A stretch of 64,000 nucleotides of DNA from Actinomycetota bacterium (GTDB lineage Bacteria; Actinomycetota; Acidimicrobiia; IMCC26256; PALSA-555): NCBI GenBank assembly GCA_016870595.1, contig VGBI01000001.1, positions 3,469-67,468 on the forward strand, written 5' to 3'. The translations under genes and the position numbers were made by a program. The notes below the pieces were generated by a model. The model searched no databases. It had not been told where the DNA came from and saw only the letters and a program-made list of their open reading frames with translations. Of this stretch, positions 17,334 through 18,395 are shown piece by piece; the first letter of the stretch is position 1; every line of letters begins with the position of its first letter.

Positions 17334-18395
17334 ATGACGACGTTCACGACGGTCACGGTGGTCGCCGACGGGACCGTGCACGCGGTCGGCGGCGCGGTCC
17401 GCGACGACGCCGTGTGGCTGCGGTCCGAGTCGGTCCCGACCGTCACCGGCTGGTCGCTGAAGCCCGAGGGGCTGTGCCGCGACGACGTGTGCATCCCGCG
17501 CGCCGCGCTGGGTGCGGACGCGATCGCCGGGACCGGCGCCGACGAGACGATCGAGCTGCGGGCGCTCGCCCGGGCGTTGCAGCGCGCGGTCGCGGTCGAG
17601 CCCGTGGCTGCGCTCGCCGTGGTCGCCGACGCGCCGGCGGATCTCGCCGGCTCGATCGTCGAGGGCCGGGCGCCGGCGTTCACGCTGCCCGACCTCGACG
17701 GCACCCCGGTGGCGCTGGCCGACTTCGCCGGCCGCAAGAAATTGCTGTTCGCCTGGTCCTCCTGGTGAGGGTGCCGCTGGGACCTGCCGGTCTGGCAGGC
17801 GCTGTACGAGGAGCTGGCGCCGGCCGGTCTCGTGCTCCTGGCGATCTCGCTCGACGAGGACGTCGAGGCGGCACGGGCCTGCGCCCGTGAGGAGTCCCCG
17901 GTCCCGCTGACCTACCCCGTGCTCGTCGACCGCGACCACGCGTGGGCCGAGCGCTACGGCGTGATCAACGTGCCGACCACGATCTGGGTCGACGAGGACG
18001 ACCGCATCGTGCGCCCACCGGCGATCGCTCCGGGTGACGACAAGTTCATCGAGTTCGTCGGGTTCAGCGCCGAGCCCCACCACCAGGCGCTGCGGGCCTG
18101 GGTGCGCGACGGCGTGGCCCCGATGGCCGACACCGAGGTCCGGGCCCGCCGCGCAGCGCCCGATGCGCGGCTCCAGGAGGCGCGGGCCGAACGGCGCCTG
18201 GCCATGCACCTCCTGCGGGCCGGCGCCGCCGACCTCGGCCACGCCCACCTCGACCGGGCGCTGGCGCTCGCGCCCGACGACTGGACGATCCAGCGGGGCT
18301 CGCTGCCGGTCCGGGGCAAGGACCCGTTCGGCCAGGACTTCTTCGACTTCTACCAGCGCTGGGAGGCCGCCGGCCGCCCCGGGTACGAGGGCTGA
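17334..18395 (+). CDS. TlpA/ResA-like redoxin with in-frame TGA (17766-17768) at the catalytic position; candidate selenoprotein, U at residue 145
   Basis: Track ORFs 17250..17768 and 17832..18395 share one frame and are separated only by one TGA. Read-through gives [18 protein letters not shown]...LLAISLDED...[16 protein letters not shown] (thioredoxin fold). selA, selB and selC are in the window and a SECIS-like hairpin lies downstream. Confidence 0.65.
17783..17799 (+). promoter_or_regulatory. candidate bacterial SECIS apical hairpin
   Basis: cctgcc-ggtct-ggcagg: a 6-bp GC-rich stem with a GGUCU loop, starting 14 nt after the TGA. Confidence 0.45.

What the first reader, a model, noticed from the sequence alone, without database searches (positions are those of the whole stretch)
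17334..18395. Redoxin gene read through an in-frame TGA at the catalytic position: candidate selenoprotein (U-G-C)
The ORF track splits this locus into 17250..17768 and 17832..18395. Both pieces are in one frame and are separated by a single TGA (17766-17768), with no other stop before 18395. Read-through gives ...[54 protein letters not shown]...[33 protein letters not shown]. This is a TlpA/ResA-type thioredoxin fold. The TGA falls where the first redox Cys of W-C-x-x-C normally sits. Here the spacing is U-G-C, one residue shorter, reminiscent of the C/U-G-C of SelD. The window also encodes SelA, SelB and a UCA-anticodon tRNA, and a SECIS-like hairpin follows the TGA. The N-terminal roughly 110 aa (LKPEGLCRDDVCIP) and the C-terminal roughly 130-aa helical region are not explained by the redoxin fold. 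I vaguely recall a RefSeq family name like 'ResA-like WAxxUGC motif protein', which would make this a member of a described family. I cannot verify that. Either way, standard gene calling truncates it.
Basis: partly seen in the sequence, partly recalled or inferred. Interest (0 to 1): 0.8.

Follow-up and report, generated by a model that had tools for sequence, protein, structure and literature searches.

The report
Mis-split selenoprotein gene, UGC redoxin
One 353-codon gene for a thioredoxin-fold redox protein is read through an internal UGA as selenocysteine; automatic annotation cuts it in two, but it belongs to a selenoprotein family already listed in the literature whose function nobody has tested.

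Summary
Window 17334..18395 (+) is one reading frame with a single in-frame TGA at 17766-17768.

- **Cys orthologues.** About 100 full-length orthologues (340-357 aa) carry Cys at that position (W-[A/S]-x-W-C-G-C-R) and continue through the C-terminal domain.
- **TGA in relatives.** 43 of 80 related species loci carry TGA at the same codon.
- **SECIS hairpin.** A 6-bp/5-nt hairpin, CCUGCC-GGUCU-GGCAGG (17783-17799), lies 20 nt after the UGA. It meets all four published bacterial SECIS criteria. It is 96% paired in 41 Sec forms, with compensatory changes, and only 66% paired in 35 Cys forms, no better than shuffled controls.
- **Sec machinery.** selA, selB and tRNA-Sec are in the window. selD is not.

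The family is not new. It is catalogued as the "UGC-containing Prx-like / TlpA disulfide reductase family" selenoprotein (GOS 2008; reviews 2022 and 2026) and is modelled by NCBIfam NF041054. This protein scores 189 bits against that model's cut-off of 300, as does its whole clade.

The protein has three domains and shows no signal peptide. The N-terminal domain, with an invariant CxxxxC, has no relative among solved structures. The biochemical function is untested.

Verdict: a new, mis-annotated member of a known kind.

The parts
17334..18395 (+). Complete selenoprotein gene: 353 codons including Sec145, then a TGA stop at 18393-18395. The ATG lies 5 nt after the asd stop codon.
   Evidence: Searches give the sequence and translation. 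The N-terminus aligns with the starts of full-length orthologues. NF041054 covers residues 33-324.
17766..17768 (+). In-frame UGA read as selenocysteine (U145), at the position of the N-terminal nucleophilic Cys of the thioredoxin-fold CxxC motif.
   Evidence: TGC/TGT in 37 related loci and TGA in 43. About 100 database orthologues have C-G-C here. The PDB profile alignment places it on the first Cys of WCxPC.
17783..17799 (+). SECIS hairpin: stem 17783-17788 (CCUGCC) pairs with 17794-17799 (GGCAGG); apical loop 17789-17793 (GGUCU). It is encoded within codons D150-L-P-V-W-Q155.
   Evidence: 96.3% of cells paired in 41 Sec forms, with 0 of 500 shuffles as good and compensatory G:C to U:A and C:G/U:A/A:U changes. 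The same columns are 66.2% paired in 35 Cys forms, equal to shuffles. MFE is -11.3 kcal/mol. The hairpin meets the bSECIS criteria quoted.
17334..17642 (+). N-terminal beta-rich domain (residues 1 to ~103) with invariant G39, W40, G46, C48 and C53 (motif GW-x-LKPEGLC-x4-C-x-P).
   Evidence: Invariant columns. AlphaFold2 pLDDT 95.3. No PDB structural match: best E 0.36, TM at most 0.41. No Pfam or PDB sequence hit.
17475..17492 (+). Invariant Cys pair C48 (17475-17477) and C53 (17490-17492) on adjacent strands of a beta-hairpin. A candidate second redox or metal site.
   Evidence: Invariant in 76 of 76 genomic relatives and in all 98 rows of alignment A4. Strands E46-49 and E52-55 in the model. 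The role is inferred.
17664..18011 (+). TlpA/ResA-like redoxin (thioredoxin-fold) domain, residues 111-226. It includes U145-G146-C147-R148 and the loop N212-V213-P214, read as the cis-Pro loop.
   Evidence: Pfam PF00578 70.7 bits and PF08534 65.6 bits. PDB profile hits to 3kcm, 4nmu and ResA 1st9. Foldseek TM 0.86 to 4nmu on the orthologue model.
18045..18392 (+). C-terminal all-helical domain (residues ~238-353) with invariant DPFG, W343, G347 and P349.
   Evidence: Helices in the orthologue model, pLDDT 96. Invariant columns. No Pfam or PDB sequence hit.
27063..28562 (-). selA, L-seryl-tRNA(Sec) selenium transferase. These are ORF limits; the true start may lie downstream.
   Evidence: TIGR00474 458.8 bits, cut-off 267.9.
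25254..27053 (-). selB, the Sec-specific elongation factor, which binds the SECIS.
   Evidence: TIGR00475 312.2 bits, cut-off 242.25.
52390..52483 (-). selC, tRNA-Sec with anticodon UCA.
   Evidence: ARAGORN. Rfam RF01852 73.6 bits, gathering score 47.

Best explanation
Window 17334-18395 is a single gene for a 353-residue (~38 kDa) selenoprotein, probably cytoplasmic, of the 'UGC-containing Prx-like / TlpA-like' redoxin family.

**Shown or strongly supported**
- During translation, SelB with Sec-tRNA(Sec) recognises the 6-bp/5-nt hairpin (17783-17799) that starts 14 nt after UGA145 and inserts selenocysteine instead of terminating. selB, selA and selC are all encoded in this window.
- The product has three tightly packed domains. 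The first is a family-specific N-terminal beta domain with an invariant C48-x4-C53. The second is a ResA/TlpA-type thioredoxin fold whose active site is U145-G146-C147-R148, that is, W-C-x-P-C with one residue deleted. The third is a helical C-terminal domain.

**Inferred mechanism**
- Sec145, at the N-terminus of the active-site helix, is the attacking nucleophile on an oxidised substrate (a disulfide, sulfenate or peroxide).
- Cys147 resolves the adduct into a strained U-G-C selenylsulfide.
- That selenylsulfide is then re-reduced by the C48/C53 pair or by thioredoxin.

**Unknown**
- The physiological substrate.

Standard gene callers split the gene into a ~140-aa and a ~190-200-aa fragment.
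For: - **Reading frame.** One frame with one internal TGA, and GC3 of 0.96 on both sides.
- **Orthologues.** About 100 full-length orthologues at 42-59% identity all have C-G-C at the site and share both flanking domains. Invariant residues are spread across all three domains.
- **Same TGA elsewhere.** 43 of 80 related GTDB species loci carry TGA at the same codon. This includes the closest relatives L001 and L002, from independent MAGs.
- **Sec/Cys switching.** At least 10 Sec/Cys switches on a neighbour-joining tree.
- **Hairpin only in Sec forms.** 96.3% paired in Sec forms against 66.2% in Cys forms. Leu151 is CTG in 39 of 41 against 17 of 35, Pro152 in 41 of 41 against 17 of 35, and the loop G is invariant. 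The two non-CTG Leu codons keep pairing, by a compensatory CAG to AAG change or by G-U.
- **bSECIS criteria.** All four published criteria are met: 5-nt loop, 6-bp stem, loop G followed by G, 20-nt spacing, and -11.3 kcal/mol.
- **Machinery.** selA and selB exceed their curated cut-offs, and tRNA-Sec is found by two programs.
- **Family hit.** Best match is NF041054 'ResA-like WAxxUGC motif-containing protein', E 1.2e-55, covering profile positions 12-317 of 354.
- **Literature.** The family is listed as a predicted selenoprotein.
- **Fold.** The orthologue model has pLDDT 96 and pTM 0.93, and its redoxin domain superposes on ResA and 4nmu at TM about 0.85. The PDB profile alignment shows the one-residue deletion relative to WCxPC.
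- **Truncated gene calls.** Databases contain fragments that end at ...WASW or start at VWQEL/MWQEL.
Against: - No experimental evidence of selenium incorporation exists for any member, as far as the searched literature shows.
- selD was not found in the 64-kb window (the query sequence was written from memory).
- Single-sequence folding is not distinctive in this 74% GC DNA, with z-scores of -1.2 to -2.5. In the window the MFE fold of the 45-nt stretch prefers an alternative pairing, so support for the hairpin is comparative.
- Most of that support is conservation. True compensatory changes are few: 4 cells in 2 pairs.
- The NF041054 score of 189 is well below its 300-bit cut-off.
- The catalytic cycle, the role of C48/C53 and the cytoplasmic location are inferred.
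- No conserved gene neighbourhood points to a substrate.
Confidence: 0.85

Rival explanations
1. The TGA is a genuine stop. The locus holds two separate genes: a ~144-aa N-terminal protein, and a ~187-aa protein starting at GTG 17832 or another internal start.
For: This is what mechanical ORF calling gives, and what public gene calls show for many relatives: fragments of 100-145 aa and 197-204 aa.
Against: The split would cut a thioredoxin fold through its active-site helix. It would also leave 17769-17831, which encodes the invariant G146-C147-R148...W154, untranslated, yet this stretch is conserved at protein level in all 80 loci. All Cys forms are continuous single proteins of ~345 aa. No homologue ends at W144 with an independent downstream gene.
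Confidence: 0.03
2. The TGA is a sequencing or assembly error for TGC/TGT, or a recent inactivating mutation (a pseudogene).
For: TGA differs from TGC or TGT by a single base. Cys forms are common, 37 of 80 loci.
Against: The same TGA occurs in 43 independent loci, including the two closest relatives (L001 and L002, 71-73% identity) from different studies. Sec forms alone keep the downstream hairpin and the codon choices that build it. The Sec machinery lies 9 kb away. GC3 and conservation are undiminished downstream of the TGA.
Confidence: 0.02
3. This is a functional rival with the same gene model. The protein is mainly a peroxidase, as the name 'Prx-like' suggests. Sec145 would be oxidised by a hydroperoxide to a selenenic acid, resolved by Cys147, and recycled by C48/C53 or thioredoxin.
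For: The top Pfam hit is AhpC-TSA PF00578. The literature calls the family Prx-like. Foldseek also finds Bcp1 and Prx2, at lower rank. The reactivity of Sec towards peroxides is established knowledge from GPx and Sec-Prx.
Against: The peroxiredoxin signature P-x3-T/S-x2-C is absent. The sequence is L-L-F-A-W-S-S-W-U, with no Pro at -7, and position -3 is Ala in most homologues. The best sequence and structure matches are ResA/TlpA/CcmG-type disulfide reductases, and the motif is a deletion variant of their WCxPC.
Confidence: 0.25
4. This is a functional rival with the same gene model. The four invariant chalcogen ligands (C48, C53, U145, C147) form a binding or transfer site for a metal, a metalloid or selenium, rather than a catalytic disulfide relay.
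For: There are two invariant closely spaced pairs, CxxxxC and UGC. C-x-C/U-x-C and CU motifs occur in metal-handling selenoproteins discussed by Haft. TlpA relatives act on copper-site proteins; 4txo and 4txv appear among the structural hits. SelD itself carries a [C/U]-G-C-K motif (from memory).
Against: No metal-related gene is conserved next to it in 80 loci. The thioredoxin-fold features of a thiol-disulfide enzyme are kept: the N-V-P loop read as the cis-Pro loop, and an acidic residue at +3 after the second Cys, as in ResA. Inter-domain geometry could not be measured.
Confidence: 0.12

Closest known systems
[quoted passage not shown] 2026, PMC13188914)
   Same: Same Pfam domain (PF00578) and TlpA-like classification. 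Same single Sec in a U-G-C motif. Many Cys (CGC) homologues. Reported as more abundant in non-marine samples, in keeping with the MAGs found here, whose isolate names point to lake, groundwater and similar sources.
   Different: The papers give only a table row: domain, motif and an example accession. They describe neither the three-domain architecture, nor the N-terminal CxxxxC domain, nor the SECIS. I could not retrieve the example sequences (MBL6689828.1, MDE0950781.1) to confirm identity directly.
NCBIfam NF041054.1 WAxxUGC_long, 'ResA-like WAxxUGC motif-containing protein' (equivalog, 354 positions)
   Same: Best hit, E 1.2e-55. The alignment spans residues 33-324 against profile positions 12-317. 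Same length class and the same U-G-C site.
   Different: The score of 189.2 bits is below the curated 300-bit cut-off. Ten other relatives, both Sec and Cys forms from Actinomycetota, Binatia, Myxococcales, Thermodesulfobacteriota and Gammaproteobacteria, scored 195-272 bits and also fail. The window has W-S-S-W-U-G-C, with Ser where the family name has Ala. NCBI's pipeline would therefore probably not name this gene or rescue it (inferred).
ResA / TlpA / CcmG (DsbE) / StoA thiol-disulfide oxidoreductases, e.g. PDB 1st9, 1su9, 4nmu, 1jfu
   Same: Same thioredoxin fold with the TlpA-type insertion, TM about 0.85. The W-x-x-W-C...C-R/K-x-E context and the N-V-P loop read as the cis-Pro loop are kept.
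   Different: Those proteins have C-x-x-C, are membrane-anchored or secreted, and act outside the cytoplasm on apocytochrome c or copper-site proteins. This protein has U-G-C, one residue shorter. It shows no signal peptide or anchor (judged from the model only), and it has two extra domains.
Engineered CGC (C-x-C) thioredoxin and CGC peptides as protein disulfide isomerase mimics (Woycechowsky & Raines 2003, from memory; C-x-C peptide rescue in bioRxiv 10.64898/2026.01.27.701630, listed)
   Same: A C-G-C active site in a thioredoxin scaffold, made by deleting one residue of CGPC. This is the same geometry as the Cys forms of the family.
   Different: Those are artificial constructs. No natural CGC/UGC thioredoxin-fold enzyme has been characterised. 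The shift towards a less reducing potential is known only for the engineered proteins and is extrapolated here.
Bacterial SECIS consensus model (Zhang & Gladyshev 2005, as summarised in PMC13188914) and the E. coli fdhF SECIS
   Same: A small apical loop starting G-G/U, a short GC-rich upper stem, 20 nt between the UGA and the loop, all within the coding sequence. The loop GGUC(U) resembles the fdhF GGUC loop (from memory).
   Different: It is very short, 6 bp, with no conserved lower stem and no bulged U. No Rfam family matches it.

Membership tests
Bacterial selenoprotein gene (general criteria) | In-frame UGA with protein-level conservation on both sides | tested here: met
   Invariant residues lie before and after the UGA in 80 loci.
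Bacterial selenoprotein gene (general criteria) | Orthologues with Cys aligned to the UGA | tested here: met
   About 100 database proteins and 37 genomic loci carry TGC/TGT at the position.
Bacterial selenoprotein gene (general criteria) | selA, selB and selC in the genome | tested here: met
   All three are in the window.
Bacterial selenoprotein gene (general criteria) | selD (selenophosphate synthetase) in the genome | not testable with these tools
   Only 64 kb is available. tblastn with an E. coli SelD sequence written from memory found nothing in the window.
Bacterial selenoprotein gene (general criteria) | Selenium actually incorporated | not testable with these tools
   Needs 75Se labelling or mass spectrometry.
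Bacterial SECIS consensus model (criteria quoted in PMC13188914) | Apical loop of 3-9 nt on an upper stem of 4-16 bp | tested here: met
   5-nt loop at 17789-17793 and a 6-bp stem. The five core pairs are paired in 41 of 41 Sec forms.
Bacterial SECIS consensus model (criteria quoted in PMC13188914) | G in one of the first two loop positions, followed by G or U | tested here: met
   The loops are GGUCU (25), CGGGU (9), CGUGU (4) and AGGUU (3). The G is invariant.
Bacterial SECIS consensus model (criteria quoted in PMC13188914) | 16-37 nt between the UGA and the apical loop | tested here: met
   20 nt, positions 17769-17788.
Bacterial SECIS consensus model (criteria quoted in PMC13188914) | MFE of -7.5 kcal/mol or lower | tested here: met
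   -11.3 kcal/mol for 17781-17801.
NCBIfam NF041054 ResA-like WAxxUGC motif-containing protein | Whole-protein score at or above the curated cut-off of 300 bits | tested here: not met
   189.2 bits. Ten relatives scored 195-272 bits.
NCBIfam NF041054 ResA-like WAxxUGC motif-containing protein | W-A-x-x-U-G-C motif | tested here: inconclusive
   The window has W141-S-S-W-U145-G-C147. W, U, G and C are present, but Ala is replaced by Ser. Homologues have WA or WS.
NCBIfam NF041054 ResA-like WAxxUGC motif-containing protein | Long (~354 aa) architecture with regions flanking the redoxin domain | tested here: met
   The protein is 353 aa. The alignment covers profile positions 12-317 of 354.
UGC-containing Prx-like / TlpA-like selenoprotein family (literature) | PF00578 / TlpA-like domain with Sec in a U-G-C motif, and Cys homologues | tested here: met
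   PF00578 scores 70.7 bits against a cut-off of 26. U-G-C is present. CGC homologues exist.
UGC-containing Prx-like / TlpA-like selenoprotein family (literature) | Sequence similarity to the published example accessions (MBL6689828.1, MDE0950781.1) | not testable with these tools
   Sequences cannot be retrieved by accession here.
Canonical TlpA/ResA/CcmG thiol-disulfide oxidoreductases | Thioredoxin fold of the TlpA type with a cis-Pro loop | tested here: met
   Foldseek TM 0.80-0.86 to 4nmu, 1su9 and 1st9. N212-V213-P214 is invariant.
Canonical TlpA/ResA/CcmG thiol-disulfide oxidoreductases | C-x-x-C active site | tested here: not met
   The site is U-G-C (C-G-C in the Cys forms). The HMM alignment shows a one-residue gap against WCPPC/WCKPC.
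Canonical TlpA/ResA/CcmG thiol-disulfide oxidoreductases | N-terminal membrane anchor or signal peptide (extracytoplasmic location) | tested here: not met
   Residues 5-30 are beta strands of a folded domain with pLDDT above 90, and there is no hydrophobic leader. No dedicated signal-peptide predictor was available.
Peroxiredoxin (AhpC/BCP) | P-x3-T/S-x2-C peroxidatic motif | tested here: not met
   The sequence is [10 protein letters not shown]. There is no Pro at -7, and position -3 is Ser here and Ala in most homologues.

The most novel reading that the evidence does not exclude
The family is not just another 'Prx/Trx-like' selenoprotein. It would be a distinct three-domain cytoplasmic selenoenzyme. 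In this reading, a previously unseen N-terminal fold delivers electrons, or a bound metal(loid) or selenium species, through its invariant cross-strand C48-x4-C53 pair to a strained U-G-C selenylsulfide centre. That would be a natural counterpart of the engineered CGC thioredoxins, with chemistry (isomerase or oxidase-like, or chalcogen transfer) not found in CxxC redoxins. Sec would be the ancestral state, lost repeatedly.
Probability: 0.2. Interest if true: 0.55.

Novelty: new member of a known kind. Interest (0 to 1): 0.3.

Why it matters
**Annotation.** This gene, and hundreds of relatives in MAGs of Actinomycetota, Binatia and Myxococcota, sit in public databases as two truncated fragments. 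Most of the 150 best N-domain representatives listed, out of 325 matches, are 100-145-aa stubs. The only curated model that could rescue them, NF041054, has a cut-off that excludes every relative tested here. A sibling model or a lower cut-off would fix many records.

**Biology.** The family is widespread, including in mainly aerobic soil and freshwater lineages, and switches readily between Sec and Cys. It carries a natural C/U-G-C active site in a thioredoxin fold, plus an N-terminal domain with no solved structural relative. No function has been tested, so it is a tractable target for finding out what a one-residue-shorter redox motif does.

**SECIS constraint.** The locus is a clean example of an RNA structure constraining a protein sequence. 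The SECIS fixes D-L-P-[V/G]-W-Q and the CTG Leu codon in Sec forms only.

Tried and rejected
- **Homologue search.** The first homologue search timed out. The repeat worked.
- **Structure prediction.** I modelled the Cys orthologue P0001 (58% identity) and, separately, the window's own N-domain.
- **Model coordinates.** They are not exposed, so the distance between C48/C53 and U145/C147 could not be measured.
- **Rfam.** The gathering-score search found no SECIS family. A permissive search of 17740-17860 gave only chance hits with E above 3.
- **Single-sequence folding.** Not discriminating in 74% GC DNA. I relied on the comparison of Sec forms with Cys forms.
- **Conserved neighbourhood.** ask-asd upstream and the amidohydrolase downstream are shared only with the close relatives L001 and L002. 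Other clades have their own local synteny: an acyl-CoA ligase/dehydrogenase/TetR/thiolase set, a membrane protein, or a cation antiporter. No universal partner exists.
- **Promoter and terminator scan.** Nothing found in 14800-18700.
- **N- and C-terminal domains.** No significant match in PDB sequences, and none for the N-domain in PDB folds.
- **Other architectures with the N-domain.** The few longer hits are a spurious repeat protein (P0151) or frameshifted gene calls (P0142, P0217).
- **selD.** No hit in the window.
- **Literature.** A search for 'WAxxUGC' found no papers. The family appears under other names.
- **Other selenoprotein genes in the window.** None found.
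Full report
**1. The observation**

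The ORF list gives 17250..17768 and 17832..18395 in the same frame. Translating 17334-18395 gives 353 codons with one internal stop, TGA at 17766-17768, in the context ...[28 protein letters not shown].... Third-position GC is 0.96 on both sides of the TGA. A window-wide scan for in-frame TGAs with coding-like sequence on both sides returned three sites. One is this site. One is the selA stop immediately before selB in the same frame. The third, at 4543, I read as an ordinary junction of two adjacent genes in the same frame, without following it up. The ATG at 17334 lies 5 nt after the stop of asd (16309-17328) and aligns with the N-termini of full-length homologues.

**2. What the protein is**

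Pfam finds only an AhpC-TSA/Redoxin domain, at residues 111-226. NCBIfam's best hit is NF041054.1 'ResA-like WAxxUGC motif-containing protein', at E 1.2e-55 and 189.2 bits, covering residues 33-324 against profile positions 12-317 of 354. That score is below the curated cut-off of 300 bits.

Ten other relatives scored 195-272 bits and also fail. They include Sec and Cys forms from Actinomycetota, Binatia, Myxococcales, Thermodesulfobacteriota and Gammaproteobacteria. The model was evidently built on another clade, and its cut-off excludes every relative tested here.

**3. Homologues: Cys at the TGA position**

A search of 5.8 billion proteins gave 289 hits. About 100 are full-length (340-357 aa, 42-59% identity). 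Every one has W-[A/S]-x-W-C-G-C-R-[W/Y/H]-[D/E] at the site and continues to the same C-terminus. About 20 hits are fragments of 197-204 aa that start at VWQEL or MWQEL just after the site. These are truncated gene calls of Sec forms; the closest is P0019 at 82% identity.

Invariant residues lie in all three parts of the protein. In the N-terminal part they are G39, W40, G46, C48 and C53. In the redoxin domain they include W141, W144, U/C145, G146, C147, W154 and N212-V213-P214. In the C-terminal part they include D316, R321, P331-F-G333, W343, G347 and P349.

**4. Genomic relatives: Sec or Cys**

A scan of one genome per GTDB species found 552 relatives, and the best 80 loci were kept. The codon at the site is TGA in 43 loci and TGC/TGT in 37.

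- **Sec forms.** They occur in Acidimicrobiia and Actinomycetes MAGs, Binatia, Myxococcales and Thermodesulfobacteriota. The two closest relatives, L001 and L002 (71-73% identity, from independent studies), are Sec forms. This rules out a sequencing error.
- **Cys forms.** They include Nocardioides szechwanensis, Marmoricola and Iamia.
- **Switching.** A neighbour-joining tree of 76 sequences needs at least 10 Sec/Cys switches. Parsimony puts Sec at the root, but the tree is rough.

**5. The SECIS element**

In a gap-free, codon-aligned alignment of 41 Sec forms, columns 24-29 pair with columns 35-40. In the window this is CCUGCC (17783-17788), GGUCU (17789-17793) and GGCAGG (17794-17799).

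- **Sec forms.** 96.3% of cells are paired, and the five core pairs are paired in 41 of 41 sequences. Two pairs show changes on both sides: G:C to U:A in L044, and C:G/U:A/A:U at the base pair. None of 500 shuffles reached the observed values, and sliding the 3' partners destroys the pairing.
- **Cys forms.** The same columns in 35 Cys forms are 66.2% paired, no better than shuffles.
- **Codon choices.** Leu151 is CTG in 39 of 41 Sec forms, and both exceptions keep the pair. In Cys forms it is CTG in 17 of 35, with CTC in 13. Pro152 is present in 41 of 41 Sec forms against 17 of 35 Cys forms. Residue 153 is only Val or Gly in Sec forms, which fixes the loop as N-G-[U/G]-N-U, while Cys forms mostly have Ala, Gly or Ser.

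The hairpin meets all four criteria of the published bacterial SECIS model (quoted). It has a 5-nt loop and a 6-bp stem. The loop G is followed by G or U. There are 20 nt between the UGA and the loop. The MFE is -11.3 kcal/mol.

Three caveats apply. Single-sequence folding statistics are weak in this GC-rich DNA. Rfam has no matching family. Most of the comparative signal is conservation rather than covariation.

**6. Sec machinery**

SelA (27063-28562, minus strand) scores 458.8 bits against a cut-off of 267.9. SelB (25254-27053, minus strand) scores 312.2 bits against 242.25. tRNA-Sec (UCA) lies at 52390-52483 on the minus strand. selD was not found in the window. It must be sought elsewhere in the genome.

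**7. Structure**

An AlphaFold2 model of the Cys orthologue P0001 (58% identity, 97-sequence alignment) has pLDDT 96.0 and pTM 0.93, which indicates a compact three-domain protein.

- **Redoxin domain.** It superposes on ResA, on a Bacillus anthracis ResA-like protein (4nmu) and on a Chlorobium DsbE (3gl3) with TM 0.80-0.86. A profile search of PDB sequences matches only this domain. It shows a one-residue gap against W-C-P-P-C/W-C-K-P-C, so U145 aligns with the N-terminal nucleophilic Cys of CxxC.
- **N-terminal domain.** The window's own N-domain (residues 1-103) models at pLDDT 95.3. C48 and C53 sit on adjacent beta-strands. The domain has no structural relative in the PDB: best E 0.36, TM at most 0.41. 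A phmmer search of 1.84 billion representative proteins finds it only in this family; most of the 150 best hits listed, out of 325 matches, are 100-145-aa truncated calls such as P0125, which ends at ...FTWASW.
- **C-terminal domain.** The helical domain has no sequence match in the PDB.
- **Location.** The N-terminus is a folded beta-strand with no signal peptide or anchor, so the protein is probably cytoplasmic, unlike ResA, TlpA and CcmG. This is an inference.

**8. Gene context**

The local gene order is as follows.

1. Methylmalonyl-CoA mutase.
2. 3-hydroxyacyl-CoA dehydrogenase.
3. Peptidase S51.
4. ask.
5. asd.
6. The target gene.
7. Amidohydrolase_2.
8. A pyruvyl-transferase-like gene.
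9. tRNA-Pro.
10. A response regulator.
11. ArsA-like ATPases.
12. NfeD.
13. selB.
14. selA.
15. NUDIX.
16. An MBL-fold hydrolase.
17. Mrp/ApbC.

Only L001 and L002 share the ask-asd-target arrangement. Other clades have their own synteny, and no partner gene is conserved across the family. Context therefore gives no clue to function.

**9. Mechanism**

- **Shown or strongly supported.** There is one gene. UGA145 is recoded to Sec through a short SelB-type hairpin. The active site is a thioredoxin-fold U-G-C.
- **Inferred from established thioredoxin-fold chemistry.** Sec145 attacks an oxidised substrate. Cys147 resolves the adduct to a U-G-C selenylsulfide. Reducing equivalents arrive through C48/C53 or through thioredoxin.
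- **Extrapolated.** Engineered CGC thioredoxins and peptides have less reducing potentials and act like protein disulfide isomerase (from memory). The natural motif may therefore favour exchange or oxidase-like chemistry, or rapid recycling.
- **Alternatives.** Peroxidase and metal(loid)- or selenium-handling roles remain open. The peroxiredoxin signature is absent.

**10. Comparison with what is known**

The family is catalogued in three papers.

- 'Prx-like (UGC-containing)', pfam00578, with 46 Sec sequences and 855 Cys homologues in GOS, more abundant in non-marine samples (PMC2398784).
[quoted passage not shown] These papers give one table row each, and the 2022 review says most such predictions have no known function. 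I could not retrieve their example accessions, so identity with this family rests on the shared domain, motif and Cys homologues, and on NF041054.

**11. Verdict**

This is a genuine, mis-annotated selenoprotein gene. It is a new member of a known, only computationally described family, in a clade that the curated NCBIfam cut-off misses. The parts that look undescribed are these:

- the Sec-form-specific minimal SECIS and the constraint it places on the D-L-P-[V/G]-W-Q peptide;
- the three-domain architecture, probably cytoplasmic;
- the N-terminal CxxxxC domain with no solved structural relative.

Interest is modest, 0.3.

Noticed in passing
window 25254-28562 (-): selA and selB form a tight pair. 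The selA stop codon (TGA at 27063) and the selB reading frame are in the same frame. The pair lies 9 kb from the selenoprotein gene, whereas tRNA-Sec is 24 kb further on (52390-52483) and not next to selAB.
   Followed up: partly
window 52495-53775 (-): A 426-aa ORF directly upstream of tRNA-Sec has strong coding-like composition (GC3 0.93) but no Pfam or NCBIfam hit.
   Followed up: no
window 1-64000: No selD was detected in the window (tblastn with an E. coli SelD written from memory). No second candidate selenoprotein gene such as fdhA was found by the in-frame-TGA scan.
   Followed up: partly
L062, L067, L078 (marine Acidimicrobiaceae/Acidimicrobiales MAGs): A subclade of Sec forms has U-G-C-A or U-G-C-L instead of the otherwise invariant U-G-C-R. 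The Cys forms L052 and L065 have C-G-C-A.
   Followed up: no
L012, L014, L017, L020, L021, L023, L028, L032, L033, L036, L046, L055 (about 0.4-1.3 kb downstream of the Sec/Cys codon): In one Acidimicrobiia clade the gene is followed by a conserved multi-pass membrane protein, then an acyl-CoA dehydrogenase, an acyl-CoA ligase, a TetR regulator and a thiolase. This is clade-specific synteny and is not shared by the window.
   Followed up: partly
L001 6403-9697 compared with window 17766-19629: In the closest relative the downstream amidohydrolase starts about 2.07 kb after the Sec codon, against 0.72 kb in the window. L001 therefore has roughly 1.3 kb of extra sequence between the two genes.
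   Followed up: no
window 21589-25241: Long ORFs overlap on opposite strands (823 aa on plus, 827 aa on minus), and both give Pfam hits in different parts. ArsA-like ATPases lie on the minus strand (about 21.6-23.6 kb) and an NfeD-like membrane protein on the plus strand (about 23.8-25.0 kb). This is the usual long-ORF artefact of 74% GC DNA, not overlapping genes.
   Followed up: partly
window 17334 / 17326-17328: The gene starts 5 nt after the asd stop with no obvious Shine-Dalgarno sequence, and no promoter-like or terminator-like site was found in 14800-18700. This suggests co-transcription and possibly translational coupling with ask-asd.
   Followed up: partly
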